Assembly: GCA_049177215.1 (NCBI GenBank)
Contig: CP185379.1
Coordinates: forward strand, 1,192,150-1,256,149
Origin: Candidatus Pollutiaquabacter aromativorans
GTDB taxonomy: Bacteria; Bacteroidota; Bacteroidia; AKYH767-A; 2013-40CM-41-45
Direction of reading: 5' to 3'
DNA length: 64,000 nt
A model generated the notes under the pieces. That model did no database searches. It was not told the DNA's origin and saw only the letters and a program-made list of their open reading frames with translations. The first letter of the stretch is position 1, and each line of letters begins with the position of its first letter. A program made the translations under genes and the position numbers. Shown piece after piece: positions 9,951 through 47,310 of this stretch.

Positions 9951-10007
9951 CACCGTTTACCGGGGGAGGTCTTTACCGGCCTTCCCGATGCTGTTGCATC
10001 GAAAGAT

Positions 10008-10091: not shown

Positions 10092-10095
10092 CCGC

Positions 10096-34200: not shown

Positions 34201-34311
34201 AAGCTGAAGGAAGAAGTGGTGGGCCGCGGTGTGCCGGATGCTTTCGTGGTAGCCTTCAGCGGCACGAAACGGATCCCCCTGGCCGAGGCCTTGCGGCAGG
34301 TAGGTCAATAA
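28255..34311 (+). CDS. giant (2018 aa) secreted protein: TPR, then PD40/TolB-like propeller, then about 1300 aa of low-complexity/coiled-coil, then three C-terminal SPOR (septal peptidoglycan-binding) domains
   Basis: Signal peptide. TPR (YRYGTALLLSGKDKRNAVSYLEKA...). PD40 repeats (YLSRDGQTIYYAS..., LDRDGKTLYFAS...GGYDIFKS). Long A/T/S/Q/E/P-rich and coiled-coil stretches. Three SPOR units (FKVQIGAFR...GFKDAFVVAY, YAVQVGVYR...IPDAFVVAY, FRVQVGAFR...VPDAFVVAF). The ORFs on the opposite strand and in other frames inside it look spurious. Confidence 0.8.
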   Translation: MYLRILFILTGLLLTQVVVSGQNQANSESELRKRADKLFQDQEYLTAVGPYSQLLSLQPNDATLNYRYGTALLLSGKDKRNAVSYLEKAMNDPAQPMEGWVYLGRSYMFLGKYEDAKSCFNRFNTRATDAQRKKFNSEEWLRSAGAASELSRQRRMVSVTAQKEVLRSAAYSQIDYTNAAGRILPVPEKFQTTADKDKQAAPVMYLSRDGQTIYYASYGKGSVGGKDLYLIRKMTNGEWAQPEHLGSVLNSVYNEDYPFLDRDGKTLYFASQGHNSIGGYDIFKSVFNFNTGQWSAPENLGIPLNTPDDDLLYVPGSDGVTAVYTTADFTDNTHTEIRTIHLDDQRNPFATIRGTYYSIDQPMRRDARVIVLRAADRSVVTTVRTDPRTGDYELVLPGGESYWLVIDGGGYVPHTESFDLPAGLEKAALRQEVRMNRNKQEELMTVTNFFTPMPSAIGADVIAVNDRPSSTETSATTPSSETVQISVGNETLIVSKPVSQPVTSPEQAGEVPVTADQAADEDTSLADNYNPLLDREMTQDEIRQRQEEQLRSEEVVADEKIPAEQLHVPVDEHELARSAVEDGVALQREADSLQDRSRELYASAANREEEAVRLLEEAQSIKEDTVRAANLYLQSDDMKQMALAEKQQARELDGLATERRAEAKQALTDAKALISSTNTKDKELSASVDRALAGTSEKASVTASSPSAAQGVTSPSLEPMAEQAVEVRTEGVSSTANPTSQTTPAAGQPQAADEEQLATTSPNQQEQNQTAATTSRVSPDSNDSGVVAVQQNVSEESQPTADFKRGHAAESSGKETGKPVVGTNPEGSSVSEKNTADVLAAGTNPAITASDEHAANDKQSVIEPETTVNATTKPEGLPEQKAQQSADERTVAIHQASEEQPKAEPNAMENRPKDQATSSGEPVVIAGQPTRESESRQQPTANQPSAGKSKDDKVAATTGTSQPTSSTAANATTIRSTDDAAQSVPVAVNADGAPVSPQTTQNTDRTRATTGTQTGSTDRSTSATRLTMVPAMEGVSEETRLAYQNYKQRMEFSSRLDERSKELQTQVATMKNSPERDSLIQLSNSMSMESIRQWQSAQQQLQLAKADDPEIQTKAETAIATAKAAEPAAEPVVTSQELATVANPVRRDAVPTGESAARTGVSGNQSANTNRADRSEQPAGTQPATSGQVSAIKTDVEETNQLSVTPTTPSVEPASGEARNDGQLASNVSGNQAADRVSNDGEGQRLEVSANNPNEPRPVSGGDVAPATSTGEISRNESRQGAISPSAEQGTTTARQDRSDATPAAGRGDEQAVATKPSTIPSGAERAGQVVANPDQTPGERPASAERSNPVSKEAAPTVSGQETVTNQSERQESVRSSETQESGGQRNSNAVQTATDRTRIADNTEPAVTPANAVSNTPTNTTTQAADNRNTVNEQQPGAMQQPAQPATSQVELVYDTASVRSKLQSNEDVPVAQLDSSHKDFPRYLKLRQEVGEKQDETIRLFSSAIELNKKASQEKEEQVDLMQKAEATADANEKAKLLRSAEKRKHDSEEHEAEAGKLMAQAQKLSDEIWENNQSLEALSLAIRKSGPARTSPATTPGTSGTTTTDIRPATIPEMDETVRAESSVSIQQTGNDRAPVKAGPLTVPGIERMVVRSDKPAYTDTAPIPVDQPLPEGLVFKVQIGAFRKPIPNEAFGGLSPVSGENTRPGWIRYCVGLFRTFEPANLVKKAMRGQGFKDAFVVAYFNGKRISLGEAYAMLNQAGSDSRATYASVSREELQRLKALNIVPQRTSAPDRDEQEFFGGTTSASADGFGTGTAYAVQVGVYRSSIPPAVLGSLQPLQQEALQRGLFRYTTGRYQVYASADSMRRVAVAAGIPDAFVVAYRDGRRVSLSNARRSETGTSGSTVVRPQPAASTPAAQPAVETGAITFRVQVGAFRQQVPFQVVDALLKVSDRGVEREQDPRGLQVFFAGRFSDYESARKLKEEVVGRGVPDAFVVAFSGTKRIPLAEALRQVGQ

Positions 34312-34352: not shown

Positions 34353-34643
34353 ATGATCCGTTTCCAGAACGAAGGCGAACTCGCCTTTGAAGAGCTAGTA
34401 GACAACAAGACCGAAGAAGTCCGGGTCCGCGATCTCGTGTTGTACAACGACGACGTGAACACCTTCGATTTCGTCATCCAGTGCCTCATCGAAGTCTGCA
34501 AGCACGACGCCTTGCAAGCCGAGCAATGCACCTATATCGTGCATTACAACGGTAAGTGTACCGTCAAGACCGGGTCCTACCTGCAACTGAATCCCATGCG
34601 TCAGGCTTTGCTCGACCGTGGACTTTCCGCCGTAATCGATTGA
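34353..34643 (+). CDS. clpS: ATP-dependent Clp protease adaptor ClpS
   Basis: VRDLVLYNDDVNTFDFVIQCLIEVCKHD is the ClpS core. 96 aa. Confidence 0.8.
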   Translation: MIRFQNEGELAFEELVDNKTEEVRVRDLVLYNDDVNTFDFVIQCLIEVCKHDALQAEQCTYIVHYNGKCTVKTGSYLQLNPMRQALLDRGLSAVID

Positions 34644-34707
34644 CGGTTTTTACACCAATTTCTTTTCCGGTACACCTTTTGATTACCGGTAGCCAAACTT
34701 CCCGACC

Positions 34708-35512
34708 ATGAGTTCCCGTTCCCTGTTCGCCGGCCTGGCGCTGGCCGTAGTGCTGGTTTCCTGTAGCAAAGTACCCATCACCAAGCGCAAGCAGATGAAC
34801 CTGCTGCCGGAATCCCAGTTGGTTTCCCTGAGCCTGACCAATTATCAGGACTTCCTCAAGCAAAACCCGCCGGTCAAGGGCACCGCCGATGCGGCCCTGG
34901 TGCAGCGGGTCGGAACGAAGGTGGCCGACGCGGTCATCAAGTTCATGAACCAAAACAAGATGGGCGACCGGATCAAAGGCTATCAGTGGGAATTCAACCT
35001 CGTGAACAGTCCGGATGTCAATGCCTGGTGCATGCCGGGAGGTAAGGTGGTCGTGTATGCAGGCCTGTTGCCCGTTACGCAGGATGAGACCAGCCTGGCC
35101 ATTGTCATGGGACACGAGATCGCCCATGCGGTGGCACGACACGGCAACGAGCGCATGAGCCAGATGATGGTAGCGCAAGGGGATGGGCATGGCCCTGGAT
35201 GTGGCCCTTTCCCAGCAGCCGGCCCAGACCCGCAACATGTTCCTCACGGCCTACGGCGCGGGTTCGACCCTCGGCATCCTGGCCTATTCGCGTACCCACG
35301 AAACCGAAGCCGACAAGCTCGGACTCATCTTCGCCGCCATGGCCGGGTATGATCCGCGCCTGTCGGTCGCCTTTTGGGAGCGCATGAGCGCCAAGAGCAG
35401 CGGCAACAAACCGCCCGAATGGATGAGTACCCACCCCAGCGACGCGACCCGCATCAGCAACCTCAAAGCCTTCATGCCCACGGCTTTGAAATATTACAAA
35501 ACCGGCTCCTGA
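34708..35512 (+). pseudogene. M48-family zinc metallopeptidase lipoprotein (HExxH...E), interrupted by an apparent +1 frameshift in a G4 run at about 35179-35182
   Basis: ORF 34708..35352 carries HEIAHAVARHG and then runs out of frame after ...MSQMMVAQG. ORF 35183..35512 in the +1 frame carries the rest, including the third Zn ligand in HETEADKLGL. Removing one G of GGGG restores a single about 267-aa M48 protein. Confidence 0.7.
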
Positions 35513-35514
35513 AG

Positions 35515-35544
35515 TTTGGAAATCTCAAAAAGTTCGTACTTTTG
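35515..35544 (+). promoter_or_regulatory. Bacteroidetes-type promoter for tRNA-Arg: -33 TTTG (35515-35518), 18-nt spacer, -7 TActTTTG (35537-35544)
   Basis: gaagTTTGgaaatctcaaaaagttcgTACTTTTGcagccccgtcaccgacgggg. The leader contains a 7-bp hairpin (ccccgtc/gacgggg) before the tRNA. Confidence 0.5.
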
Positions 35545-35585
35545 CAGCCCCGTCACCGACGGGCTTCCGAAAGGAAGACCTAGCA

Positions 35586-35659
35586 GGACCCGTAGCTCAA
35601 CTGGATAGAGCATCTGACTACGGATCAGAAGGTTAGGGGTTCGACTCCCTTCGGGTCCG
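35586..35659 (+). tRNA. tRNA-Arg (anticodon ACG)
   Basis: Acceptor ggacccg/cgggtcc, D-arm tagctcaactggatagagca, anticodon stem tctga/tcaga with loop ctACGga, T-arm ggggttcgactccct. Confidence 0.85.
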
Positions 35660-36164
35660 CTACTGACACAATAGACCCTTGATTATCAAGATGATAGTCG
35701 AGGGTTTTTTGTTGGTGGACGCCTGTGTGGGCACTCTTTTGCTTTGCTTGCCTTTTCCAAGAACCTCTCGAGGGCGGATTTGCTTGTGCACAGCTCGTTA
35801 AGCTTTTTCAAAGTACGAACGCTTACAAACTTCTTCTAAAATATTGGGGTGTTAAGAATGCCTGGGTCGGTAGTATTCCTTAAATGAAACTTTCATCTGG
35901 ATAATTTATATTAGCAAGGCAATCTTTATGGTCGCGCCCTTTTGCTTGACAGCAAAGGTTCCTACTCAGATGCGAAACCATTTAACGGCATTCGCAATTT
36001 TCGCCATTGTGTCATATTACAATGGAATCTAAATGTTGTTATGATATAGCAGCTGGATTGTTTTAAAAACAGTTTCCGAAGAAGGCTTCTGATAATATAA
36101 CTCGAACTTTCTGTTACCCCTGGATGATTAATTAGGTATTTCCCAACTTCTAAATAAACTAGCT

Positions 36165-37748
36165 ATGCGAGTCTTGCTCTTTCAATGGTTTTTACTAATT
36201 ACAATACAGATTATTAATGCCACTTCTTCGATTGCTCAGCAGCAACAGGGGATAGAGTGGGCCGTGTCTTATGGAGGAGCTAGCATTGACGTAGGAAACT
36301 CTATTCAACTTACCAGCGATGGTGGTTATGTTGCAATTGGAAAGAGTCGTTCAAGTGATGGTGACATCACTGTAAATCACGGCAGGGAAGATTACTGGGT
36401 TGTAAAGATCTCGAGCGATGGGAGTATTCAATGGCAAAAGTCTTTTGGCGGATCATCAGAGGATAATGGAAGATTCGTCCAGGGCACCTCAGATGGAGGA
36501 TACATTTTGATTGGATTTACAATGTCTAATGATGGCGACGTAATTGGAAATCATGGTGGTTATGATTGTTGGGTTGTAAAGCTGGATAGCATAGGGGATA
36601 TTGAATGGCAGAGAGCTTTAGGAGGATCGGGCATGGATGCCGGTGTATCAATTATTCAAACTTCCGATGGAGGTTATGCCATGATTTCTGTGTCAGATTC
36701 TAATGATGGAGATGTATACGGGAACAATGGCCAAACAGACTTTTGGGTTGTGAAACTTTCAGAATTAGGTAACATTGAATGGCAAAAATCTTTAGGGGGG
36801 AGTAGTTCTGAAACGGCATCCTCTATTCAACAAACTGCTGATGGGGGATACATTGTATCGGGTCAGAGTAGTTCCAATGATGGCGATGTTACTGGAAACC
36901 ACGGGGACTCTGATTTTTGGATAGTTAAATTGTCGAGTTTCGGAGATATACAATGGCAGAATTCGTACGGAGGGGCAGCTTATGATCATGGTCTGTCGAT
37001 TCAAGAAACTGCAGATGGAGGGTATATAACATGTGGTTTTGTTGAATCAAATAATGGTAACGTGACTTTTAATCACGGAAGTCGTGATGTTTGGGTACTT
37101 AAGTTATCTAATAATGGTGATTTGGAATGGGAAAAGTCATTTGGAGGCACTGGGGATGATTGGGGGCATGAAATTCAAATCACTTCTGATGGCGGATATG
37201 TGATTCTCGGACACAGTAATTCTAATGATGGAGATGTATTTAATATTCATGGATCAAGGGATTATTGGGCGATAAAGTTGTCTAATTTTGGTGTATTGGA
37301 GTGGCAAAAGACCTTAGGTGGTTCAGAATCTGACATAGGGCATTCTATTCGGCAAACCCTTGACGGTGGGTTTATCCTAATTGGTGAAAGTCAATCAAAT
37401 GATGGCGATGTGACTGGAAATCATGGTGCTTCCGACTATTGGATTGTAAAGTTAAATGCAACAATTGGGTTGTCCGAGTTTTCTGACTTTGAATGGACAA
37501 TTGTTTCCCCAAATCCAGTAACTAGTAGATTAACCATTAAAGTATCACTTACAAATTCTGAAGATCTTCAAGTTTATATACGGGACTTGCTTGGTCATGT
37601 AGTTTTAGAACCAATAAAATTGAATAATGTCAGCGGATTGGTTGAACAATCAATATCAACAACTATGCTTTCCGACGGAATGTACTTGCTTGATATTGTT
37701 GGGCTAAAATGGAGAAAAACTAAGCGAATAATCATAGTTCAAAGATGA
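36165..37748 (+). CDS. T9SS cargo protein with eight tandem ~48-aa SBBP-type beta-propeller repeats and a type-A C-terminal sorting domain
   Basis: Signal peptide. Repeat (I/L)EWQKS.GGS..D.G.SI.QTSDGGY...G.S.SNDGDV.GNHG..D.WVVKL occurs 8 times. C-terminal SPNPVTSRLTIKV...GMYLLDIVGLKWRKTKRIIIVQR. Confidence 0.7.
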   Translation: MRVLLFQWFLLITIQIINATSSIAQQQQGIEWAVSYGGASIDVGNSIQLTSDGGYVAIGKSRSSDGDITVNHGREDYWVVKISSDGSIQWQKSFGGSSEDNGRFVQGTSDGGYILIGFTMSNDGDVIGNHGGYDCWVVKLDSIGDIEWQRALGGSGMDAGVSIIQTSDGGYAMISVSDSNDGDVYGNNGQTDFWVVKLSELGNIEWQKSLGGSSSETASSIQQTADGGYIVSGQSSSNDGDVTGNHGDSDFWIVKLSSFGDIQWQNSYGGAAYDHGLSIQETADGGYITCGFVESNNGNVTFNHGSRDVWVLKLSNNGDLEWEKSFGGTGDDWGHEIQITSDGGYVILGHSNSNDGDVFNIHGSRDYWAIKLSNFGVLEWQKTLGGSESDIGHSIRQTLDGGFILIGESQSNDGDVTGNHGASDYWIVKLNATIGLSEFSDFEWTIVSPNPVTSRLTIKVSLTNSEDLQVYIRDLLGHVVLEPIKLNNVSGLVEQSISTTMLSDGMYLLDIVGLKWRKTKRIIIVQR

Positions 37749-37798
37749 TGACTGTCCATACTACTAAGCCCGAATTAAAATAGTTACTATAAGTTGCC

Positions 37799-39250
37799 AT
37801 GTTCGAACAAACCTTCAAAAACATCGACGACATCCTCCACAAAGACGCCGGTTGCGGTAGCGAACTGGACTATGTGGAACAGACTTCATGGGTGTTGTTT
37901 CTAAAATACCTGGATGACCTGGAGAAAGACCGCGCCACGGCTGCTGAACTGACGGGTAAGACGTACACGCCCATCATCGACAAAAAGTACCAGTGGTCGG
38001 TCTGGGCGGCGCCCAAGGGTAAGGATGGCAAACTGGACCACCACAAGGCGATGACCGGTGACGACCTGACCGACTTCGTGAACGGCAAGCTGTTTCCCTA
38101 CCTGAAAAAGTTCAAGACGGATGCGGACAGCGCGGATACCATCGAATACAAGATTGGCGAAATCTTCAGCGAACTGAAAAACCGCCTGCAAAGCGGATAT
38201 AACCTGCGGGAGGTCATCAACCTCATTGACGAGTTGCGTTTCCGTACCCACGCAGAGAAGCACGAAATGAGCCACCTCTACGAGGAGAAGATCAAGAACA
38301 TGGGCAACGCCGGGCGCAACGGCGGCGAGTACTACACGCCGCGCCCGCTCATCACCACCATCGTGAAGGTGATTGACCCGAAGATTGGCGAGAAGATCTA
38401 CGACGGCGCCTGCGGCTCGGCAGGCTTCCTGTGCGAAGCTTTTGCCTACCTCAACAAGAAAGGGCTGTCCAGCAAGGATACAGTGACTCTCCAGAAGAAG
38501 ACCTTCTATGGCAAGGAAAAGAAATCGCTGGCCTACATCATCGGCATCATGAACATGATCCTGCACGGTGTGGAAGCCCCCAACATCATACACACCAATA
38601 CACTGGCCGAAAACCTCGCGGACATACAGGAAAAAGACCGCTACGATGTGGTGCTTGCCAATCCGCCTTTTGGTGGAAAGGAGCGTGCCGAAGTGCAACA
38701 AAACTTCCCGATTAAAACAGGCGAAACCGCTTCGCTCTTTTTACAGCACTTCATTAAAATATTGAAAGCAGGTGGCAAGGCAGGTGTGGTTATTAAAAAC
38801 ACTTTTTTGAGTAATACCGATAACGCCTCTGTCGCCATCCGAAAGACCTTGTTGGAGAGTTGTAACCTTCATACGGTGCTGGATTTGCCAGGTGGCACGT
38901 TTACAGGAGCTGGTGTAAAAACGGTAGTGCTGTTTTTTGAAAAAGGTAAGCCCACAAAGAAGGTATGGTATTATCAGCTGAACCTTGACCGTAATTTAGG
39001 TAAGACCAACCCGCTCAATGAAAAAGACTTGGCGGACTTCGTGCAGCTCCAAAAATCCTTCAAGGATAGCGAGAACTCTTGGACGATAAACGTAAAGGAC
39101 ATCGACCAGAGCACGTTTGACTTGAGCGTGAAGAATCCGAATAAAAAGCAGGAAGTTGCCTTGCGTCAACCGCAAGAAATTTTAGAGGAGATGAAGGCGC
39201 TGGATGAAGAGAGTGCGGAAATCTTTAATTCAATATTGGAGCTGTTATGA
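37799..39250 (+). CDS. hsdM: Type I restriction-modification system, DNA methyltransferase subunit M
   Basis: HsdM N-terminal domain (WVLFLKYLDDLEK), SAM motif I (DGACGSAGFL) and catalytic NPPFGG (VLANPPFGGKE). 483 aa. Stop overlaps the hsdS start (ATGA). Confidence 0.9.
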   Translation: MFEQTFKNIDDILHKDAGCGSELDYVEQTSWVLFLKYLDDLEKDRATAAELTGKTYTPIIDKKYQWSVWAAPKGKDGKLDHHKAMTGDDLTDFVNGKLFPYLKKFKTDADSADTIEYKIGEIFSELKNRLQSGYNLREVINLIDELRFRTHAEKHEMSHLYEEKIKNMGNAGRNGGEYYTPRPLITTIVKVIDPKIGEKIYDGACGSAGFLCEAFAYLNKKGLSSKDTVTLQKKTFYGKEKKSLAYIIGIMNMILHGVEAPNIIHTNTLAENLADIQEKDRYDVVLANPPFGGKERAEVQQNFPIKTGETASLFLQHFIKILKAGGKAGVVIKNTFLSNTDNASVAIRKTLLESCNLHTVLDLPGGTFTGAGVKTVVLFFEKGKPTKKVWYYQLNLDRNLGKTNPLNEKDLADFVQLQKSFKDSENSWTINVKDIDQSTFDLSVKNPNKKQEVALRQPQEILEEMKALDEESAEIFNSILELL

Positions 39251-39732
39251 AGCAGGGTTGGGAAATAAAGAAGTTGGGAGAGATTGTTGATATTGTTAAT
39301 GGAAGGAATCAATCTTCAGTGCTCTCTGAAAATGGACCATATCCTATTTACGGAAGTGCTGGTAATTTGATGGGCTATTCAACGGAGTATTTGTGTGATA
39401 AAGGCACCACTATAATCGGAAGAAAGGGGAATATCTCTACCCCAATCTTCATTGATGAAAGATTTTGGAACGTAGATACTGCCTTTGGATTATTCCCCAA
39501 AAATGGAAGCATCCCCAAGTTTATTTATTATTTATGTCTTACCATTGATTTCAAAAGTCGAAACAGGGGTACAACTATTCCGAGTTTAGTCAAATCAGAC
39601 TTATTGACCATTGATGTCCCATTTGTTAAGTCCCTCCCCGAACAACAACGCATTGTTTCCATATTAGACGAGTGCTTTGCCGCCATAGCCAAGGCAAAAG
39701 CCAATGCCGAAGAAGAACCTCAAAAACGCTAA
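39247..39732 (+). CDS. hsdS: Type I R-M specificity subunit S, N-terminal target-recognition-domain half (ends in the central conserved region)
   Basis: MKQGWEIKKLGEIVDIVNG... is a typical HsdS start. It ends ...ILDECFAAIAKAKANAEEEPQKR* inside the central conserved spacer. Confidence 0.75.
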   Translation: MKQGWEIKKLGEIVDIVNGRNQSSVLSENGPYPIYGSAGNLMGYSTEYLCDKGTTIIGRKGNISTPIFIDERFWNVDTAFGLFPKNGSIPKFIYYLCLTIDFKSRNRGTTIPSLVKSDLLTIDVPFVKSLPEQQRIVSILDECFAAIAKAKANAEEEPQKR

Positions 39733-40348
39733 GGAACTTTTTGAGAGTTATTTGCAGGGGGTGTTTGAGAATGGGGATTGGGACACGAAAACCATTGAAC
39801 TGGTATGTGATGAAATATTTGCAGGTGGTGATGCGCCCCAAAACAATTTTTCATTGGAGTCCAATAAAAAACATAATATTCCTATATACGCAAATGCTGT
39901 AAAAGATAGAGGTCTGTACGGCTATACTGACTTTGCAAGAGTTAACAAGCCTTGTGTGACAATAGCAGCAAGGGGGAGTGGTACAGGGCACACGGAATTA
40001 AGGAATGAACCATTTTTGCCTATTGTAAGGCTCATTGTATGTATTCCAAACTGCAAAATAATCACAGCCGAATTCCTCAAATACACGATAGATAATTTAG
40101 TGATTCAGCGCAGCGGTAGTGCGATTCCACAACTAACTGTTCCGATGATAAAGGACTATATTATACCAGTTCCACTTATTGAAGAGCAAAAACAGATTAT
40201 TGAAAAGGCAGAAGCACTTAAAGAACAAAAAGCAAGACTCGAAAATGTATATCAAAAGAAGTTGGAAGACTTGGAGGAGTTGAAGAAGGCCATCCTTCAA
40301 AAGGCATTTGCTGGGGAGTTGAAAACAGGAAAACCGGTTGCGGCATGA
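39704..40348 (+). CDS. hsdS: Type I R-M specificity subunit S, C-terminal target-recognition-domain half (different frame, overlaps previous ORF by 29 nt)
   Basis: Continues the conserved central/C-terminal regions (NLKNAKELFESYLQ ... EEQKQIIEKAEALKEQKARLENVYQKKLEDLEELKKAILQKAF). Together the two ORFs make a normal two-TRD HsdS. Confidence 0.7.
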   Translation: MPKKNLKNAKELFESYLQGVFENGDWDTKTIELVCDEIFAGGDAPQNNFSLESNKKHNIPIYANAVKDRGLYGYTDFARVNKPCVTIAARGSGTGHTELRNEPFLPIVRLIVCIPNCKIITAEFLKYTIDNLVIQRSGSAIPQLTVPMIKDYIIPVPLIEEQKQIIEKAEALKEQKARLENVYQKKLEDLEELKKAILQKAFAGELKTGKPVAA

Positions 40349-41235
40349 GTTGGAACGAAAAAAGCATGTTAAATGAGCCATCCGGAGAATGGGGTGGTCC
40401 CTGGACTGAAAAAAAGCTTGAAGCTTTTTCAAAATATGTGTGGTCTTACCTAACCATTATGAAGAAGTTCCCTTTTTGGAAAACCATCTACTTTGATGGC
40501 TTTGCGGGAAGCGGAACAAGGGATAAGCGGGCGAATGCTCATTTGATGCAACAACTAAAAATCACAGACGAAGAAGAAGAAACTTATAAAGGTGCTGCCG
40601 AAAGGGTTTTAGGTTTGCAAGAATTGGGGTTTGACTTTTACTATTTTATTGACAAAAACGACACTTCGCTGAATAAATTGAAAACAAAACTGGGTGATAG
40701 ATTTAAAGATAAAACGATTGTTTACCGGTCAGGAGATGCGAACGTTCAAATAGCCGAGCTTGCAAAAGCCTTGCGAACCAAAGATTACGCAGCATTGGTT
40801 TTTCTTGACCCTTTCGGCATGCAAATAGATTGGAATTCCATAGAAGAATTAAAAGATACACGTTCTGATGTATGGATTTTAGTTCCAACGGGCGTTATTG
40901 TAAATCGTCTATTGGACAGAGCAGGAAAATTGGAGTTTAGCGATAAACTCCAATCATTTTTCGGCTTGCCAATTGAAGAAATCAAAACACATTTCTACGA
41001 AGAAAAAAAAGTGCAGACACTTTTCGGAGTAGAAGAAATCATCACAAAGGTTTCTCGACCTATTGAGAAAATTTCAAGTTTGTATGCCGAACGAATGAAA
41101 ACTATCTGGAAGCACGTTACGGATGAACCACTAGTATTGAAGAACCGAAACGGCTCACCTATATTTCATTTCGTATTTGCATCAAATAATCAGAATGCAA
41201 AAAAGATTGCTAAACAAATTATTCATAACATTTAA
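40345..41235 (+). CDS. TcmP-like (three-Cys-motif partner protein) family protein; unknown function
   Basis: 296 aa. N-terminal W..KKLEAF.KYV..Y, glycine-rich YFDGFAGSG and VFLDPFG motifs as remembered for the TcmP family (TIGR04474). Start overlaps the hsdS stop by 4 nt and it is followed 3 nt later by a Gp37/Gp68 gene. Family assignment is from memory, not a search. Confidence 0.55.
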   Translation: MSWNEKSMLNEPSGEWGGPWTEKKLEAFSKYVWSYLTIMKKFPFWKTIYFDGFAGSGTRDKRANAHLMQQLKITDEEEETYKGAAERVLGLQELGFDFYYFIDKNDTSLNKLKTKLGDRFKDKTIVYRSGDANVQIAELAKALRTKDYAALVFLDPFGMQIDWNSIEELKDTRSDVWILVPTGVIVNRLLDRAGKLEFSDKLQSFFGLPIEEIKTHFYEEKKVQTLFGVEEIITKVSRPIEKISSLYAERMKTIWKHVTDEPLVLKNRNGSPIFHFVFASNNQNAKKIAKQIIHNI

Positions 41236-41238
41236 CCT

Positions 41239-41964
41239 ATGGCACAATCAAGTATAGAATGGACTGAAATGACTTGGAATCCAACAACGGGTTGCGATAA
41301 AATTTCGGCAGGTTGCAAATTCTGTTATGCGGAAGTAATGGCAAGGCGATTAAAAGCAATGGGCGTTGAAAAATATGCCAATGGCTTTGAGTTGGCTATT
41401 CACGAAGATGAATTGCAAACACCTTACACTTGGAAAAAATCGAAAATGGTATTTGTAAATTCAATGAGCGACTTATTTCATAAAGACGTGCCCGTTGAAT
41501 TTATTCAAAAGGTATTCAGAGTAATGAAAGAAAATCCGCAACACGTTTTTCAAATTTTGACCAAACGGGCTGATTTGCTTTTATATTATGATAAAGAAGG
41601 ATTGTTGGAATGGGCGCACAACATCTGGATGGGTGTTTCGGTAGAAAGCGAAAAAGTGATGAACCGGATTGACCTTTTGCGTCAAACCAATGCAAGAGTA
41701 AAATTTTTAAGTTGCGAGCCGTTAATAAGCCCTCTGCCAAATTTGAATTTAAAAGGCATTGATTGGGTAATAGTAGGCGGTGAAAGCGGAAGAACGCCAA
41801 GACCCATGAAAAAGGAATGGGTAATGGAAATTAAAGAACAATGTAGGAAAAAAGATGTAGCGTTTTTCTTTAAGCAATGGGGCGGAACGAACAAAAAGAA
41901 AACAGGCAATCTGCTTAACGGCAAAAAATATTTAGAAATGCCAGAAATAGTTGAATCGAAATGA
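41239..41964 (+). CDS. phage protein Gp37/Gp68 family (DUF5131), three-Cys-motif radical-SAM-like protein
   Basis: IEWTEMTWNPTTGCDKISAGCKFCYAE carries the family-defining N-terminal Cys triad (C-x6-C-x2-C). 241 aa. Stop overlaps the hsdR start (ATGA). Confidence 0.75.
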   Translation: MAQSSIEWTEMTWNPTTGCDKISAGCKFCYAEVMARRLKAMGVEKYANGFELAIHEDELQTPYTWKKSKMVFVNSMSDLFHKDVPVEFIQKVFRVMKENPQHVFQILTKRADLLLYYDKEGLLEWAHNIWMGVSVESEKVMNRIDLLRQTNARVKFLSCEPLISPLPNLNLKGIDWVIVGGESGRTPRPMKKEWVMEIKEQCRKKDVAFFFKQWGGTNKKKTGNLLNGKKYLEMPEIVESK

Positions 41965-44312
41965 ACGAGGCAGAAACACGCGCTGAACTAATCGACCCCA
42001 AGCTCAAGGCTTGCGGCTGGGGCGTGGTGGAAGGCTCCAAAATCCTGCGAGAGTATAAAATCACCGCGGGGAGGATTCAGGCTGGCGGAAGAGGCAAGCG
42101 TGATATTGCAGATTATGTGCTGGTCTATAAAGGCATCAAGCTGGCGGTAGTGGAAGCGAAAAGCGCTTCGGTGGAAGTGGGTGAGGGTGTGATGCAAGCC
42201 AAGAAGTACGCGGAGAAACTGCAAACCGGCACCACGTACAGCACCAACGGGAAGGAAATCTACCAGATTTGCATGGAGACCGGCGCTGAGGGCTTGGTGC
42301 CGGAGTTCCTCAGCCCCGACCAGCTATGGAACAAGACTTTTTCGCCGGCCGGTGCCGAACCGATAGCTACCGCCCAATGGCGCGAGCGATTCACCAATGT
42401 TCCTTTTGAAGACAAAGGAGGCAGCTGGCAGCTTCGCTACTATCAGGAAATCGCCGTGCAACGCGCCATTGAGGCCATTGCACAAAACAAAAACCGAATC
42501 CTGCTCACCCTTGCCACGGGAACAGGCAAAACGGCTATCGCCTTCCAAATCGCCTGGAAGCTATACCAAACCCGCTGGAACCTGAGACGGGATGGCAGCC
42601 GCAGACCGCGCATCCTGTTCCTGGCCGACCGCAACATCCTCGCCGATCAGGCCTACAACGCCTTTTCGGCGTTTCCGGAAGATGCGCTGGTGCGCATTAA
42701 GCCGAATGAGATTAGGAAAAAGGGCAAAGTGCCGACCAATGGCAGCGTCTTCTTCACCATCTTCCAGACCTTCATGAGCGGGCAGGATGCAGCGGGTAAG
42801 CCCACCCCATATTTCGGAGAGTACCCACCGGACTACTTCGATTTCATCATCATTGACGAGTGCCACCGCGGCGGAGCAAACGATGAAAGCAACTGGCGCG
42901 GGATTCTGGAGTATTTCAGTCCGGCGGTACAGTTGGGTCTGACCGCAACCCCCAAGCGACAGGACAACGTGGATACGTATGCTTACTTCGGCGAACCGGT
43001 GTACGTGTATTCGCTCAAAGAGGGCATCAACGACGGCTTCCTCACCCCGTTCAAAGTAAAACGCATCCAGACGACCCTCGACGACTACCGCTATACGTCC
43101 GACGATACCGTGGTAGAGGGCGAAATCGAGGAGGGTAAATTGTACGAGGAGAAGGACTTCAACCGCACCATTGAGATCGTGGAACGGGAGGCCAAGCGGG
43201 TGAATGTGTTTCTTTCAGAGGCAAACCAACACGAAAAAGCAATAATCTTCTGTGCTAACCAAGGGCACGCCGCCTTGATACGGGATTTAGTAAATCAGCA
43301 CGCTAAGCACAAAGACCCCTTTTACTGCGTACGAGTGACTGCCAATGACGGGGAGGAAGGGGAGCGCCTGCTGCGGGAGTTTCAGGACAATGAAAAGACG
43401 TTGCCGACGATTCTGACCACCTCGCAAAAACTCTCCACCGGGGTTGATGCACGGAACATTCGAAACATCGTCCTGCTGCGCCCCGTCAACTCGATGATCG
43501 AGTTCAAGCAAATCGTCGGCCGGGGTACCCGCCTGTTCGATGGGAAGGAGTTTTTCACCATCTACGATTTTGTCGATGCCTACCGCCACTTTTCCGATCC
43601 CGAATGGGATGGGGAACCGGAGGGCGAAGTGGACAAGGTCGTCAGCGATCACGGTCAAGAGAAATACGATCCAAGAGCTCCCCGTGAGCCTGAGGAAGCA
43701 GGAGATCCCAAGGAACCTCGGCGGAAAGTAAAGGTTAAGCTACGAGACGGTAAAGCGCGGGAGATACAGCACATGGTGTCCACCTCGTTTTGGAGTGCGG
43801 ACGGAAGGCCGATCTCTGCACAAGAATTCCTGAGCAATCTGTTCGGAGAACTGCCGAAACTTTTCAAAGACGAAGAGGAACTGCGAAAGCTGTGGAGCAA
43901 TCCATTGACCCGCCGTACGCTGCTTGAAAAGCTGGAAGAGGCCGGTTTCCCCAAGGCAGACCTGCTCACCTTGCAGCAGTTGGTCGATATGGAAAAGAGC
44001 GACCTGTATGATGTGTTGGAATATGTTTTCAATGGCGACTATATCGCCATGACAAGAGAAGCCAGAGCCAAAGCAGCCGAAGCGACCATTTTTGCCCTGC
44101 TCAACGACAAGCAAAAGGAGTTCATTGCATTTGTGCTCAGTAAATACATTGAAACCGGCGTGGATGAGCTTGACCAGGATAAGCTGCCTATCCTGTTGAC
44201 GAACAAATATCAGTCACTGGAAGACGCTAAAGCGGTCTTGGGGGATGTGGCGAATATCAGTCGGTTGTTTGTGGAGTTTCAGGAGCATCTTTATAAGCAG
44301 CGGGTTGCGTAA
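41961..44312 (+). CDS. hsdR: Type I restriction enzyme R subunit (EcoEI-like, 783 aa)
   Basis: HsdR_N PD-(D/E)xK domain (DIADYVLVYKGIKLAVVEAK), SF2 helicase motifs (LATGTGKT, DECHRG, later motifs) and an EcoEI-R-type C-terminal domain. Confidence 0.9.
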   Translation: MNEAETRAELIDPKLKACGWGVVEGSKILREYKITAGRIQAGGRGKRDIADYVLVYKGIKLAVVEAKSASVEVGEGVMQAKKYAEKLQTGTTYSTNGKEIYQICMETGAEGLVPEFLSPDQLWNKTFSPAGAEPIATAQWRERFTNVPFEDKGGSWQLRYYQEIAVQRAIEAIAQNKNRILLTLATGTGKTAIAFQIAWKLYQTRWNLRRDGSRRPRILFLADRNILADQAYNAFSAFPEDALVRIKPNEIRKKGKVPTNGSVFFTIFQTFMSGQDAAGKPTPYFGEYPPDYFDFIIIDECHRGGANDESNWRGILEYFSPAVQLGLTATPKRQDNVDTYAYFGEPVYVYSLKEGINDGFLTPFKVKRIQTTLDDYRYTSDDTVVEGEIEEGKLYEEKDFNRTIEIVEREAKRVNVFLSEANQHEKAIIFCANQGHAALIRDLVNQHAKHKDPFYCVRVTANDGEEGERLLREFQDNEKTLPTILTTSQKLSTGVDARNIRNIVLLRPVNSMIEFKQIVGRGTRLFDGKEFFTIYDFVDAYRHFSDPEWDGEPEGEVDKVVSDHGQEKYDPRAPREPEEAGDPKEPRRKVKVKLRDGKAREIQHMVSTSFWSADGRPISAQEFLSNLFGELPKLFKDEEELRKLWSNPLTRRTLLEKLEEAGFPKADLLTLQQLVDMEKSDLYDVLEYVFNGDYIAMTREARAKAAEATIFALLNDKQKEFIAFVLSKYIETGVDELDQDKLPILLTNKYQSLEDAKAVLGDVANISRLFVEFQEHLYKQRVA

Positions 44313-44362
44313 TTAGGTAATTAAAATTCTCAGTTATTTAACCATATTGCTCAGTCTGGCTA

Positions 44363-45118
44363 ATGAAAAATCTTACAGTAAGTAGTTTCGACGAAATAAT
44401 TAATATATTGACTAACGATAAATATGGTTGTGGCCATGTTGTTTATCGTGGAGTTTCTGATTCTAAGAAACATGACTTAAGACCGTCTGTTGGAAGGATA
44501 GATCCCTCATTGTTAAAGGGCAAAGATCTTCAAGAGTTGGAGCGTGAGATGCTAACCCGTTTTAAATTGAGAGCAAACTTTGAAATTAGTCCGCAACCTA
44601 AGGATGATTGGGAGTGGTTGGCTTTAGCTCAACATCACGGCCTGCCAACAAGACTTCTTGACTGGACATTTAGTCCATTAATTGCAATCTACTTTGCATG
44701 TAAACCCATTCTCAATGACAATGGTTTATTTGATAGTTCTAACAGTGACGCAAGAGCTGTTTACGCACTACATACATGTTCGTACCTAGACACCAGTTGC
44801 TTAGATCCATTTTCAGTTAGTGAATGCTGCTTATTTTACCCCCCTCACATCACAAAGCGTATATCTGGTCAGTTTGGTCTATTCTCTGTTCAGCCAGACC
44901 CCATGACAGCATTCGATTCTCAGTTAGAGGAGTCGGATGAAAACTGGGTAGATAAGATTGAAATTCCACTGGACCTAGCTATTGAAGCTCAAAAGAAGCT
45001 GTTTCTTTTGGGAATAAGGCATGAAACTATTTTTCCAGATTTGGAAGGCTACACATATGACCTAAGAGTAAAGTTCAATATTGCTTCATGTCATACTTTG
45101 AAAAATCTTTGCTTGTAG
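44363..45118 (+). CDS. FRG-domain protein
   Basis: VVYRGVSDSKKHDLRPSVGR and WEWLALAQHHGLPTRLLDWTFSPLIAIYFA match the FRG-domain signature. 251 aa. Confidence 0.65.
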   Translation: MKNLTVSSFDEIINILTNDKYGCGHVVYRGVSDSKKHDLRPSVGRIDPSLLKGKDLQELEREMLTRFKLRANFEISPQPKDDWEWLALAQHHGLPTRLLDWTFSPLIAIYFACKPILNDNGLFDSSNSDARAVYALHTCSYLDTSCLDPFSVSECCLFYPPHITKRISGQFGLFSVQPDPMTAFDSQLEESDENWVDKIEIPLDLAIEAQKKLFLLGIRHETIFPDLEGYTYDLRVKFNIASCHTLKNLCL

Positions 45119-45277
45119 TGTCCTTTTAAAGGCCCAATTGGTTCTCCGACATGATGAATTTCACAAATGGGCGCAGCAGATTCTAATTTAACTCGGTGAA
45201 TTGGCAGGAAAATATTTGGGCTAAACTCTTTGGGTATTTATAAAAACTATATATTAGTCATCAAACCTAACGTCTTT

Positions 45278-46990
45278 ATGAAAACTAAAGTTCTACTTTC
45301 CTTGCTGATTTGTATCAGCATCTCGGTGTCGGCATTATCTCAAGCAACCCCCTCTTATGTGCCAACCAACGGATTGGTCGGCTGGTGGCCTTTTAATGGG
45401 AATGCAGATGATGCGAGTGGGAATGGGAATAACGGGACATTTTCTAACGGCAGTTATGTGCCTAGTATATGGGACATGGCCGCTGAATTTAATGGTAATA
45501 GTTCACTGATAACTATACCAAGCAGCAGTAGCTTTGATACTGATTCATTTACCTTTTCTTTAAGAGTGAATTTGTCTTCACACTTAGGGCACAATGAAAT
45601 TCAGTTTGGTATTCCAGGTGATTCGCTGAGATGGTCTATTGGTTGGGATCCTAATCAGTTATATCTATTACCGATGACCTGTGCAGGAACTTATGGGACA
45701 GGGCAAAATTATCCTCAAGTACCTATAAATGTCGGAACCTGGTATCATATGGTGTTTGTTAATCATGGAATTTATACTGATTATTATTTGGATGGGGTGT
45801 TTTTGGGAACATCCGATATGACAACCCCTTTGAATTGTTGGAGCCCCAGTATGAACCTATACCTGGGCGGAGACATTGGCGGGGGGGCCATCGAGTATTT
45901 TGCTGGTCTAATGGATGAATGCGGATTTTGGAACCGTGCCCTCACCCAACAGGAAATCACAAATCTTTATAATGCCACAACTTCTCCTCCTTGCAACCCG
46001 CTGCCAATTAATTTAATGAATGGACTTGTGGGCTACTGGCCTTTTTGTGGGAATGCGAATGATGAGTCAGGTAATGGAAACAATGGAACCGTAAATGGAG
46101 CAACCATGGCGGCTGATAGGTTTAGCAATGCAGGTAATGCGTTTTCATGGAACACTTCTCCGGATAAAATAGTGGTGCCTAATAGCAATAGCCTACAACT
46201 TACTTCAGCTTTCTCGGTTGGTCTCTGGTTGAAGCCAATTAATAATACTTACGGAACCGGCCCCAATTATCATGCAATAGTAGAGAAGTGGGGGGCAGCT
46301 AACGACGCATCTTATCTATTTGAGCTATTTACTAATGGTATCCCAGCATTCCGAACTCATAATTCTGGAAGTGATGCGGTGATTCAAGCAAGACAAGCGG
46401 TTCCTTTTGATGTTTGGACACACCTTCTTTATACTCAAAATGCAGATACCGGGAGACTATATGTGAATGGCCTTTTGGATACTGTTGTAATGGGAATGAT
46501 AACCCCCATGGTTATGAATAATGACCTGCTATTTGGAAGTAATGATGCTTACAATGTTGGTTCTTCCGGGGATGCATACGAAGGATTAATAGATGATATC
46601 GGTATTTGGAATCGGGTGCTCAGCCAGTCTGAAGTCAACCAAGTATATAACCAAAATATCTGCTTTCAAACCATCACCGTTACCGACACCCTGCTTATCA
46701 ATGTAAATATAACTAACCTGAATCCGGTCACTTATCAGAATACAATCAAGGTCTTCCCGAATCCGACCAATGACCATATCACGGTCGACTTCGGGCCGAA
46801 CTACGCGTCGTTGACGGGTTACAGCTTGCGCATCGACAACACCCTTGGACAGACGATGTTTACCTCCCCTGTGCAGCAGCAATCTGCCTATATCGACCTA
46901 AACACCTGGACAGGTGTGGGGGTCTATTTTGTCTATCTACTGGACGCTCAGGGCCATACCGTGGATGTGAGGAAAATTGTATTGCAGTAG
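45278..46990 (+). CDS. T9SS cargo protein with two LamG/concanavalin-A-like lectin domains and a type-A C-terminal sorting domain
   Basis: Signal peptide MKTKVLLSLLICISISVSALSQA. Duplicated LVGWWPFNGNADDASGNGNNGT / LVGYWPFCGNANDESGNGNNGT LamG hallmarks. C-terminal IKVFPNPTNDHITVDF...GVYFVYLLDAQGHTVDVRKIVLQ. Confidence 0.7.
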   Translation: MKTKVLLSLLICISISVSALSQATPSYVPTNGLVGWWPFNGNADDASGNGNNGTFSNGSYVPSIWDMAAEFNGNSSLITIPSSSSFDTDSFTFSLRVNLSSHLGHNEIQFGIPGDSLRWSIGWDPNQLYLLPMTCAGTYGTGQNYPQVPINVGTWYHMVFVNHGIYTDYYLDGVFLGTSDMTTPLNCWSPSMNLYLGGDIGGGAIEYFAGLMDECGFWNRALTQQEITNLYNATTSPPCNPLPINLMNGLVGYWPFCGNANDESGNGNNGTVNGATMAADRFSNAGNAFSWNTSPDKIVVPNSNSLQLTSAFSVGLWLKPINNTYGTGPNYHAIVEKWGAANDASYLFELFTNGIPAFRTHNSGSDAVIQARQAVPFDVWTHLLYTQNADTGRLYVNGLLDTVVMGMITPMVMNNDLLFGSNDAYNVGSSGDAYEGLIDDIGIWNRVLSQSEVNQVYNQNICFQTITVTDTLLINVNITNLNPVTYQNTIKVFPNPTNDHITVDFGPNYASLTGYSLRIDNTLGQTMFTSPVQQQSAYIDLNTWTGVGVYFVYLLDAQGHTVDVRKIVLQ

Positions 46991-47011
46991 ACGGAGATAA
47001 AAGGTTGGAGG

Positions 47012-47048
47012 TAAGGGGGCTTGCTTGGGTGAAGCCCCCTTTTTTATT
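47012..47048 (+). terminator. rho-independent terminator after the LamG cargo gene
   Basis: agggggctt-gcttgggtg-aagccccct hairpin followed by TTTTTTAT. Confidence 0.6.
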
Positions 47049-47310
47049 GCCCCTTGTATGATTACAATTAGGGCTGTTCTAAACAAGCTTAAACATAACC
47101 TCCGGAATTTCAGCCTTTGAGGGCCATAAAAACCTTCTTTGCCTAAGATCCATATCATCCTAGATTTCCGGGAATTTATAGGCCGATACCTGTGAAGCAA
47201 GTCAAGTTCGTTGCAACAGCCTTGTCTTCCAACGCGCTTTGGGTATTCAAAAGAGCCTCGAAAAACCCCCGAAATCACTATCTTTACGGCCATTCTAAAG
47301 GAGACGAACA

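What the first reader, a model, noticed from the sequence alone, without database searches (positions are those of the whole stretch)
35586..47300. Integrase-less AT-rich island inserted immediately 3' of tRNA-Arg(ACG)
From the end of tRNA-Arg to just upstream of glmM the base composition is clearly lower in GC than both flanks. The segment carries accessory-type genes only: an SBBP-repeat T9SS cargo, the Type I R-M/TcmP/DUF5131 operon, an FRG-domain gene and a LamG T9SS cargo. tRNA 3' ends are classic integration sites, but I could find neither an integrase/recombinase ORF nor a direct repeat of the tRNA 3' end at the distal boundary. About 500 bp of non-coding AT-rich DNA (35.66-36.16 kb) follows the tRNA. 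This suggests an old, degraded insertion or a defence-island hot spot.
Basis: partly seen in the sequence, partly recalled or inferred. Interest (0 to 1): 0.6.

Follow-up and report, generated by a model that had tools for sequence, protein, structure and literature searches.

The report
Strain-variable surface-protein and defence hot spot
The AT-rich stretch after tRNA-Arg is one of at least five interchangeable gene cassettes that strains of one wastewater bacterium carry at the same chromosomal spot; it was most likely swapped in by ordinary recombination rather than inserted by a mobile element, which is a known kind of genome variation.

Summary
Window 35661-47256 has 44.2% GC against 54% in the flanks, with no integrase and no tRNA repeat. 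The low GC is patchy: most of hsdM and nearly all of hsdR have flank-like composition.

The organism is Candidatus Pollutiaquabacter aromativorans. About 20 contigs from conspecific strains (98-99.5% identical flanks) all lose homology within 6 nt of the tRNA-Arg 3' end. They regain it about 55 nt (one allele about 40 nt) upstream of glmM. Between these points lie at least five unrelated alleles. Every allele encodes cargo of the type IX secretion system (T9SS). None has an integrase, transposase or tRNA repeat, and no strain has an empty site. SNP density rises at both borders.

This fits a replacement-type flexible genomic island exchanged by homologous recombination, not a degraded tRNA-targeted insertion. 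The window's allele is a minority one. Two low-GC T9SS cargo genes bracket a 7.3-kb EcoAI-family Type I R-M module. That module has TcmP-DUF5131 embedded between hsdS and hsdR, followed by an FRG gene. The same six-gene order occurs elsewhere on an integrase-bearing element.

It is a new member of a known kind and of moderate interest.

The parts
35586..35660 (+). tRNA-Arg(ACG), the left anchor of the variable locus
   Evidence: ARAGORN and Rfam tRNA at 66.9 bits. All 10 conspecific left-flank loci stay homologous up to 35660-35666.
35661..36164 (+). Allele-specific non-coding leader: the allele's own tRNA terminator hairpin (35673-35707 plus T run), then AT-rich DNA upstream of the first cargo gene
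   Evidence: Terminator scan. No Rfam family. Only ORFs of 52 aa or less. The terminator differs from the homologous one shared by alleles B, C and D.
36165..37748 (+). 527-aa beta-propeller (SBBP / delta-60-like repeats of 174 nt) T9SS cargo protein; GC3 0.31
   Evidence: Por_Secre_tail 2.4e-10. Repeat family D1. The nearest non-self homologue is at most 54% identical. There are 0 differences from other allele-A contigs.
37799..39250 (+). hsdM, Type I methyltransferase. The first 900 nt have flank-like composition (GC3 0.62-0.92); GC3 falls to 0.44-0.48 over 38699-38998 and is 0.72 in the last bin
   Evidence: N6_Mtase 7.8e-65 and HsdM_N. PADLOC MTase_I 1.7e-164. GC3 profile. 88-93% amino-acid identity to proteins from several Bacteroidota families.
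39247..40348 (+). hsdS specificity subunit, split into 161-aa and 214-aa ORFs by one extra A at 39710 found only in the window
   Evidence: Methylase_S hits on both halves. Four other allele-A contigs encode an intact 366-aa HsdS; the single-base difference is seen against L085, L103 and L105.
40345..41235 (+). TcmP (three-Cys-motif partner protein), component PDC-M41A; predicted SAM-methyltransferase fold
41239..41964 (+). DUF5131 (phage Gp37/Gp68 family), component PDC-M41B; Cys19-x6-Cys26-x2-Cys29
   Evidence: PF07505 4.1e-97. PDC-M41B 2.9e-127. Sequence. 279 relatives in viral contigs.
41961..44312 (+). hsdR, EcoAI/FtnUII-family Type I restriction subunit; flank-like GC3 of 0.66
   Evidence: NF046051 at 797 bits against a cutoff of 550. 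ResIII and EcoEI_R_C. Composition.
44363..45118 (+). FRG-domain protein (PADLOC candidate PDC-S15); it sits directly after hsdR here and in L118
   Evidence: PF08867 4.6e-26. PDC-S15 4.9e-67. An FRG-domain gene in the same position in L118, with no nucleotide-level match to the window's FRG gene.
45230..46990 (+). 586-aa protein with two LamG domains, T9SS cargo; GC3 0.42
   Evidence: Laminin_G_3 7.7e-42 and Por_Secre_tail 1.8e-6. Internal 651-nt duplication D6.
46991..47256 (+). Allele-specific distal spacer. The right boundary of the variable locus is at 47256/47257, about 55 nt upstream of the glmM start at 47311
   Evidence: Eleven right-flank loci regain homology at 47256-47257; allele B does so at 47272.
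34400..35598 (+). A tract private to the window strain, about 4% divergent (46 differences), covering the ClpS 3' end, the M48 peptidase gene and the tRNA 5' part, and abutting the island. It includes the 1-nt insertion at 35177 that frameshifts M48
   Evidence: The same differences appear against every other strain compared in detail, including allele-A strain L085.

Best explanation
Window 35661-47256 is one allele of a multi-allelic, replacement-type flexible genomic island. It lies between tRNA-Arg(ACG) and glmM in Candidatus Pollutiaquabacter aromativorans.

Shown:
- Conspecific strains carry at least five mutually non-homologous cassettes between the same two breakpoints.
- Every cassette encodes T9SS-secreted cargo.
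- No cassette carries a recombinase or tRNA repeats.
- The flanks next to the cassettes are unusually polymorphic.

Inferred:
- Whole cassettes are exchanged when imported DNA recombines homologously in the conserved flanks (ClpS/M48/tRNA on the left, glmM/aminotransferase on the right).
- The diversity is kept by selection on phage- or grazer-exposed surface proteins and on phage defence.

The window's allele is composite. Two recently acquired low-GC T9SS cargo genes bracket a 7.3-kb defence module, hsdM-hsdS-TcmP-DUF5131-hsdR-FRG. That module is built on a widely transferred EcoAI-family Type I R-M backbone. Its hsdM and hsdR have near-host composition. Its hsdS and the genes embedded between hsdS and hsdR are AT-rich and can be swapped between backbones. 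The low GC is therefore that of three separate segments, not of one inserted element.
For: Identity of the organism: a 100% identical HsdM protein is named Ca. Pollutiaquabacter aromativorans.

Breakpoints:
- Ten left-flank loci, 98.1-99.4% identical over 11.3 kb, end homology at 35660-35666.
- Eleven right-flank loci, mostly 98.5-99.5% identical over up to 12.6 kb, start homology at 47256-47257; allele B (L084, L095) starts at 47272, and the 5-kb L084 flank is only 95.4% identical.

Alleles:
- A: 11.6 kb, the window's allele.
- B: a 1196-aa PKD/T9SS protein.
- B': a 1203-aa protein, with only about 64% identity to B over a few hundred nt.
- C: a 417-aa T9SS protein plus a 67-aa ORF, 2.1 kb; seen in 6 of the 10 left-flank loci.
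- D: a 511-aa protein plus a beta-helix T9SS protein of more than 2499 aa.

No mobility signature:
- No integrase or transposase Pfam hit in any allele.
- No tRNA 3' repeat in any allele.
- No empty site among about 20 loci.

Replacement rather than insertion:
- Alleles B, C and D share a homologous post-tRNA terminator.
- Allele A has an unrelated terminator, and nothing C-like remains at its distal end.

Border polymorphism:
- The first kb of glmM has 14-32 differences per kb, and 91-94 per kb for allele B. Most bins further out have 0-14 per kb, with a few patchy higher bins.
- The window strain has a private 4% divergent tract at 34400-35598.

Recent spread: SBBP, FRG and LamG differ at 0-2 positions in about 5.5 kb between allele-A strains.

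Independent assemblies: the same junctions are seen in contigs from at least three samples, ERZ22680409, JGI 3300009870 and SRR30862795.

R-M backbone:
- In other Bacteroidota the backbone carries different embedded genes (PHP-domain, Y1 transposase, RhuM, ORF6N, PDDEXK, SLFN) and has no adjacent integrase in the fetched flanks.
- It also occurs on plasmids.
- In four other hosts hsdM has host-like GC3 and hsdR is intermediate, while hsdS and most embedded genes are more AT-rich.

Literature: replacement fGIs are defined by homologous recombination, dissimilar alleles of similar role and SNP-rich borders. Additive fGIs are defined by repeated tRNA 3' ends (PMC10872708).
Against: - No recombination event was observed directly. 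The mechanism is inferred from population patterns in metagenome contigs and MAGs, which can be strain mixtures.
- The left breakpoint lies exactly at a tRNA 3' end, the classic integrase target.
- A relative of the defence module (69-78% nucleotide identity) sits in an element with a tyrosine integrase, an HTH_17 protein and a VapE-like protein (L118). An integrase-mediated arrival in the past therefore cannot be excluded.
- One locus (L093) shows a larger or rearranged arrangement that I could not resolve.
- Selection by phages is conjecture.
- Family-level relatives give no outgroup: none of the 80 fetched loci has ClpS, M48 or RsmB within 10 kb upstream of glmM, and none of the 58 of them scanned has a tRNA-Arg.
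Confidence: 0.72

Rival explanations
1. A degraded tRNA-integrating island. An integrative element carrying the R-M module, and perhaps the cargo genes, inserted site-specifically into the 3' end of tRNA-Arg. It later lost its integrase and its distal att repeat.
For: The left boundary coincides with the tRNA 3' end. The composition is foreign. The same six-gene module order occurs in L118 next to a Phage_integrase, an HTH_17 protein and a VapE-like gene.
Against: - No tRNA repeat at 14-45 nt with relaxed mismatch, in this allele or any other.
- No integrase in any of at least five alleles.
- No empty site.
- The ancestral terminator and the C-type distal sequence are absent rather than displaced.
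- The L118 integrase lies next to mnmE, and no tRNA was found in that 21-kb locus.
- The cargo segments are nearly identical between strains, so there has been little time for decay.
Confidence: 0.15
2. An additive hot spot. Cassettes accumulate one after another at a recombination-prone site. Allele A was built stepwise: first the cargo genes, then the R-M module inserted between them, then the TcmP-DUF5131 cassette inserted into the R-M.
For: - Allele A has three compositional blocks and two host-like blocks.
- TcmP-DUF5131 is 84.6% identical at the nucleotide level to a cassette inside a different R-M backbone, whose hsdM is only 68.8% identical.
- Divergence within allele A is patchy: 1.8% in the R-M and about 0 in the cargo genes.
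Against: Every contig that carries the SBBP gene and extends far enough (six of ten) also carries hsdM directly after it, so no intermediate SBBP-LamG allele was seen. There are no repeats marking cassette joints. This explains how allele A was built, not how alleles replace one another. It is compatible with the main explanation.
Confidence: 0.08
3. An assembly artefact or native core DNA. Either the low-GC stretch is a chimeric join in a MAG, or it is ordinary core genome whose composition happens to be AT-rich.
For: The window has two single-base frameshifts, in M48 and in hsdS, which hints at consensus errors. Many contigs break at this locus.
Against: Both junctions of allele A are reproduced in independent assemblies from different samples (L085/L122, L103/L123, L104). 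Conspecific genomes have other DNA here, so it is not core.
Confidence: 0.03

Closest known systems
Replacement flexible genomic islands (Rodriguez-Valera and Lopez-Perez concept; for example fGI-1 of Methylophilaceae, PMC10872708, and the O-antigen/glycocalyx islands of Alteromonas, PMC3698932)
   Same: Fixed position between conserved genes, here tRNA-flanked. Mutually dissimilar alleles with a similar cell-surface role. SNP-rich borders. No integrase or att repeats. A presumed role in phage evasion.
   Different: The cargo is single T9SS-secreted proteins of 417 to more than 2499 aa rather than polysaccharide gene clusters. The locus is small (2-12 kb). One allele adds an R-M and defence module.
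tRNA-integrating genomic islands, additive fGIs and tycheposons
   Same: It lies immediately 3' of a tRNA gene, has foreign composition and carries accessory genes.
   Different: No tyrosine recombinase, no repeat of the tRNA 3' end, no empty site and no tandem accretion marked by repeats.
Type I R-M systems with embedded defence genes (prrC in EcoprrI; PADLOC 'guilt-by-embedding' candidates, Payne et al. 2024, bioRxiv 10.1101/2024.01.29.577857)
   Same: hsdM-hsdS-[embedded genes]-hsdR, all on one strand. The embedded pair matches PDC-M41 and the trailing FRG gene matches PDC-S15. The same backbone carries other embedded genes in other hosts.
   Different: The defence function of TcmP-DUF5131 and of FRG has not been tested. 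In this window hsdS carries a frameshift.
E. coli immigration control region (hsd-mrr-mcrBC); recalled from general knowledge, not tested here
   Same: A hypervariable chromosomal locus where alternative restriction systems replace one another between conserved flanks without a dedicated recombinase.
   Different: Here most alleles carry no restriction system at all, only surface or secreted proteins.

Membership tests
Replacement flexible genomic island | Same chromosomal position between conserved core genes in conspecific genomes | tested here: met
   About 20 loci with 98-99.5% identical flanks share breakpoints at 35660-35666 and 47256-47272.
Replacement flexible genomic island | Alleles show little or no sequence similarity but have a similar functional role | tested here: met
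   Alleles A, B, B' and C/D give no or only marginal blastn matches to each other. All encode Por_Secre_tail (T9SS) cargo, although the hits in the C-type 417-aa and 169-aa proteins are below Pfam's threshold.
Replacement flexible genomic island | Raised SNP/dS density at the island borders | tested here: met
   The first kb of glmM has 14-94 differences per kb, against 0-14 in most bins further out. The window has a private 4% divergent tract at 34400-35598. dS itself was not computed.
Replacement flexible genomic island | Under-recruitment of each allele in metagenomes relative to the core | tested here: inconclusive
   Only a rough proxy is available. Exact-sequence FRG occurs in 26 index blocks and SBBP in 13. 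ClpS occurs in 732 and the aminotransferase in 284. No read mapping was possible.
tRNA-targeted integrative island / additive fGI | Direct repeat of the tRNA 3' end at the distal boundary or between cassettes | tested here: not met
   No match with 14-45 nt probes at roughly 7-25% mismatch in six allele sequences. None in the window at 3 or fewer mismatches in 23 nt.
tRNA-targeted integrative island / additive fGI | Integrase or recombinase gene in the island | tested here: not met
   Pfam, NCBIfam and PADLOC scans of all ten ORFs. Precomputed or fresh Pfam results for the other alleles. The intergenic gaps are too short to hold such a gene.
tRNA-targeted integrative island / additive fGI | Empty (unoccupied) site in some strains | tested here: not met
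   The shortest allele is 2.1 kb (L086). No locus joins the tRNA directly to glmM.
Tycheposon | tRNA at the border plus a tyrosine recombinase and a replicative or mobility module | tested here: not met
   The tRNA is present, but there is no recombinase, primase or helicase mobility gene.
Type I R-M, EcoAI/FtnUII (type IB-like) family | HsdR matches the family equivalog above its cutoff, and HsdM and HsdS lie in one operon | tested here: met
   NF046051 at 797 bits (cutoff 550). HsdM has N6_Mtase and HsdM_N. HsdS has two Methylase_S halves. hsdS is frameshifted in this window only.
PADLOC candidate PDC-M41 (TcmP + DUF5131) | Both component HMMs matched by adjacent genes, embedded in a known defence system | tested here: met
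   PDC-M41A 1.3e-109 and PDC-M41B 2.9e-127, located between hsdS and hsdR.
PADLOC candidate PDC-M41 (TcmP + DUF5131) | Confers phage resistance | not testable with these tools
   PDC systems are predictions by 'guilt-by-embedding'. No experimental paper was found.
Defence island (Makarova et al.) | Clustering of several independent defence systems | tested here: inconclusive
   There is one established system (Type I R-M) plus two untested candidates (PDC-M41, PDC-S15). The other alleles at the locus carry no defence genes.

The most novel reading that the evidence does not exclude
The conserved hsdM and hsdR genes of this widely transferred Type I R-M backbone may act as homology arms. They would let the AT-rich middle (hsdM 3' end, hsdS, and embedded cassettes such as TcmP-DUF5131) be swapped as a unit between unrelated hosts without any recombinase. 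On a larger scale, the tRNA-Arg and glmM flanks would do the same for whole T9SS-cargo/defence alleles. On this reading the locus is a two-level, recombinase-free cassette exchange system. TcmP-DUF5131 (an RlmJ-like SAM-methyltransferase fold plus a three-Cys Fe-S-like partner that is abundant in phage contigs) would be a nucleic-acid-modifying module shuttling between phages and R-M backbones.
Probability: 0.3. Interest if true: 0.55.

Novelty: new member of a known kind. Interest (0 to 1): 0.35.

Why it matters
It shows that an 'integrase-less island next to a tRNA' need not be a decayed mobile element. Here the tRNA end and the glmM promoter are simply the edges of conserved DNA between which whole cassettes are exchanged.

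For an abundant, uncultured wastewater Bacteroidota species, it pinpoints a locus where strains differ in secreted or surface T9SS proteins and, in a minority of strains, in restriction and candidate defence genes. Such a locus is likely to control phage susceptibility, and it breaks metagenome assemblies.

It also adds natural examples of the TcmP-DUF5131 and FRG candidates travelling with one R-M backbone. These are useful for choosing constructs to test.

Tried and rejected
- **tRNA 3' repeats.** Searched with exact, 3-mismatch and relaxed probes in six allele sequences. Nothing found.
- **ncRNA and regulatory scans.** Rfam at E <= 0.1 over 35-48 kb found only the tRNA. The sigma-70 promoter and terminator scan gave counts close to the shuffled controls (25 against 18.7 +/- 4.1 promoter-like sites; 12 against 11.7 terminator-like sites), apart from the tRNA terminator.
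- **Family-level synteny.** I fetched 80 glmM loci from GTDB species representatives. None of the 58 scanned has a tRNA-Arg, and none of the 80 has ClpS, M48 or RsmB within 10 kb upstream of glmM. There is therefore no outgroup for the ancestral state. The window's own species was not among the hits; the best was 80% identical.
- **Donor search for the first cargo gene.** No homologue above 54% identity was found.
- **Plasmid search.** Only the R-M backbone matched, at 66-72% identity.
- **Sequence search of PDB** with TcmP, DUF5131 and FRG gave nothing usable.
- **Literature.** No paper on Pollutiaquabacter and none that characterises TcmP or DUF5131.
- **L093.** Its glmM-proximal 1.8 kb matches the C allele, preceded by host-GC genes. 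It may be a larger allele, a rearrangement or a mixed-strain MAG join; left unresolved.
- **Repeats within the region** (for example I7 and D14) were judged to be chance.

Full report
**Observation.** ARAGORN and Rfam place tRNA-Arg(ACG) at 35586-35660. The stretch 35661-47256 has 44.2% GC, against 53.8% on the left and 54.7% on the right. In 1-kb windows outside it the mean is 0.540 with sd 0.025. Most windows inside it lie 4-6.6 sd lower.

The deviation is real but patchy. The first 900 nt of hsdM (37800-38700) and hsdR (41961 to about 44100) have flank-like GC. GC3 is 0.67 and 0.66 for these two genes, against 0.71-0.77 for ClpS, glmM and the aminotransferase. The other seven reading frames have GC3 of 0.31-0.42.

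- a 527-aa beta-propeller T9SS cargo protein
- hsdM
- a frameshifted hsdS
- TcmP
- DUF5131
- an EcoAI-family hsdR
- an FRG-domain gene
- a LamG T9SS cargo protein

There is no integrase or transposase, and the intergenic gaps (504, 50, 50, 111 and 320 nt) leave no room for one. No copy of the tRNA 3' end exists. The 504-nt leader contains only a tRNA terminator hairpin.

**Organism and comparison set.** A 100% identical HsdM protein is named Candidatus Pollutiaquabacter aromativorans, which belongs to its own order within Bacteroidia. Looking up the exact ClpS, aminotransferase, glmM, FRG and SBBP proteins returned about 30 contigs of the same species from many metagenomes and MAGs. Their flanks are mostly 98-99.5% identical to the window over 11-12.6 kb.

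Family-level relatives were no help. Of 80 glmM loci from GTDB representatives, 65 keep the glmM-aminotransferase pair. None of the 80 has ClpS, M48 or RsmB, and none of the 58 scanned has a tRNA-Arg, within 10 kb upstream.

**What the comparison shows.** All ten left-flank loci lose homology to the window at 35660-35666, which is within 6 nt of the tRNA 3' end. Right-flank loci regain it at 47256/47257, about 55 nt before the glmM start codon. One allele regains it 15 nt later.

Between these points there are at least five alleles:

| Allele | Example loci | Content | Size / GC |
|---|---|---|---|
| A | window, L085, L103-L105 | cargo genes plus the R-M module | 11.6 kb, GC 0.44 |
| B | L084, L095 | one 1196-aa PKD/T9SS protein | 4.0 kb, GC 0.48 |
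| B' | L001, L094, L096-L098 | a 1203-aa protein, only about 64% identical to B over a few hundred nt | GC 0.46 |
| C | L086, L089-L092, L099, L100 (L087 is a diverged C-like variant) | a 417-aa T9SS protein plus a 67-aa ORF | 2.1 kb, GC 0.50 |
| D | L083, L088 | a 511-aa protein, 77% nucleotide identity to the C gene, plus a beta-helix T9SS protein of more than 2499 aa | - |

Allele C is the one seen most often: it accounts for 6 of the 10 left-flank loci.

Every allele encodes a Por_Secre_tail protein. None has an integrase, a transposase or a tRNA repeat. No locus is empty. Alleles B, C and D share a homologous terminator hairpin right after the tRNA. Allele A has a different terminator, and nothing C-like survives at its distal end. 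Allele A therefore replaced the ancestral sequence rather than being inserted into it.

Many short metagenome contigs end at these two breakpoints, as expected where strains diverge.

**Evidence for homologous exchange.**
- Relative to the window, the first kb of glmM carries 14-32 differences per kb in most strains. It carries 91-94 per kb in allele-B strains, decaying over 1-2 kb to the 0-14 per kb seen in most bins further out. Allele B was therefore imported together with a roughly 9% divergent piece of glmM.
- On the left, the window strain has a private tract at 34400-35598 with 46 differences (about 4%) from every other strain compared in detail, including allele-A strain L085. The tract ends inside the tRNA.
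- Within allele A, the SBBP gene and the FRG-LamG segment differ at 0-2 positions in about 5.5 kb between the window and three other contigs. The R-M operon differs at 108 positions (1.8%) in patches.

The low-GC cargo genes are thus younger than the divergence between strains. This argues against an old, decayed insertion.

These features match the published definition of a replacement flexible genomic island: homologous recombination, dissimilar alleles of similar role, and SNP-rich borders. They do not match the additive type, which is marked by repeated tRNA 3' ends, nor the tycheposon type, which has a tRNA plus a tyrosine recombinase (PMC10872708).

**Anatomy of the window's allele.** The centre (37799-45118) is a defence module. 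HsdR is an EcoAI/FtnUII-family enzyme (797 bits against a cutoff of 550). HsdM is 88-93% identical to proteins from Cyclobacteriaceae, Niabella, Chitinophagaceae and others. That is far above the 70-75% seen for glmM between such taxa, so the backbone is horizontally spread.

Four such loci carry the same hsdM...hsdR frame, inserted between unrelated housekeeping genes with no integrase in the fetched flanks. Their embedded genes differ: PHP-domain, Y1 transposase, RhuM, ORF6N, PDDEXK, SLFN/AlbA. In each of them hsdM has host-like GC3 and hsdR is intermediate, while hsdS and most embedded genes are more AT-rich. The backbone also occurs on plasmids of cyanobacteria and proteobacteria with toxin-antitoxin or PDDEXK genes embedded.

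TcmP-DUF5131 matches PADLOC candidate PDC-M41 and the FRG gene matches PDC-S15. Both are 'guilt-by-embedding' predictions with no experimental test.

The TcmP-DUF5131 cassette is 84.6% identical at the nucleotide level to one inside a different R-M backbone whose hsdM is only 68.8% identical (L120). The cassette therefore moves independently of the backbone.

The full order hsdM-hsdS-TcmP-DUF5131-hsdR-FRG recurs in L118. There it lies in an element with HTH_17, VapE-like and Phage_integrase genes next to mnmE. This shows the module can ride on integrative elements elsewhere. No tRNA was found in that 21-kb locus, and nothing of that element is present in the window.

**Verdict.** It is a small replacement-type hypervariable locus for T9SS cargo. 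One minority allele also carries a mosaic Type I R-M and candidate-defence module. As a rough guide to its rarity, exact FRG occurs in 26 index blocks against 732 for ClpS.

The remaining uncertainty is that all population evidence comes from metagenome contigs and MAGs, and that the recombination mechanism is inferred rather than observed. The finding is a new member of a known kind, of moderate interest.

Noticed in passing
window 39704-39732 (extra A at 39710): hsdS is split into 161-aa and 214-aa ORFs by a 1-nt insertion found only in the window. Four other allele-A contigs encode an intact 366-aa HsdS. This could be real inactivation, a split-HsdS variant or a consensus error.
   Followed up: partly
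window 34400-35598 (extra A at 35177): The M48 peptidase gene upstream of the tRNA is frameshifted only in the window. It lies in a private tract of about 4% divergence that ends at a C/T difference inside the tRNA D-arm (35598).
   Followed up: partly
window 28255-34311, especially 30001-33000: A 2018-aa PD40-repeat giant protein gene shows strong AT skew (+0.26 to +0.30) over 3 kb. It is conserved in all conspecific loci.
   Followed up: no
window 40345-41964; L120 10001-11657; L118 9906-11610: The TcmP-DUF5131 cassette is more similar between different R-M backbones (84.6% nucleotide identity) than the backbones are to each other (about 67-69%). The TcmP model has an RlmJ/DUF519-like SAM-methyltransferase fold. 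DUF5131 has a Cx6Cx2C motif and many relatives in phage contigs.
   Followed up: partly
window 39632-39791: The central conserved region of hsdS is 87-94% identical at the nucleotide level to distant backbones (L113, L114, L118, L120), while the flanking target-recognition domains show little or no nucleotide-level match. This is the expected recombination point for specificity shuffling.
   Followed up: no
L093 1-8527 (GCA_046330005.1) versus L091: This MAG has the C-allele right end preceded by host-GC genes (a SprB-like protein of more than 2661 aa, a BNR protein, a methyltransferase). Its other contig ends 381 nt after the tRNA with a 92% variant of the same sequence. It could be a larger allele, a rearrangement or a strain mixture.
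   Followed up: partly
L115 15828-18599: In a related R-M backbone the HsdR (923 aa) carries an inserted GIY-YIG domain. That locus also has RhuM, PDDEXK_3 and SLFN/AlbA-HATPase genes embedded.
   Followed up: no
window 9871-10093: Two tandem tRNA-Leu genes (GAG and CAG), 56 nt apart.
   Followed up: no
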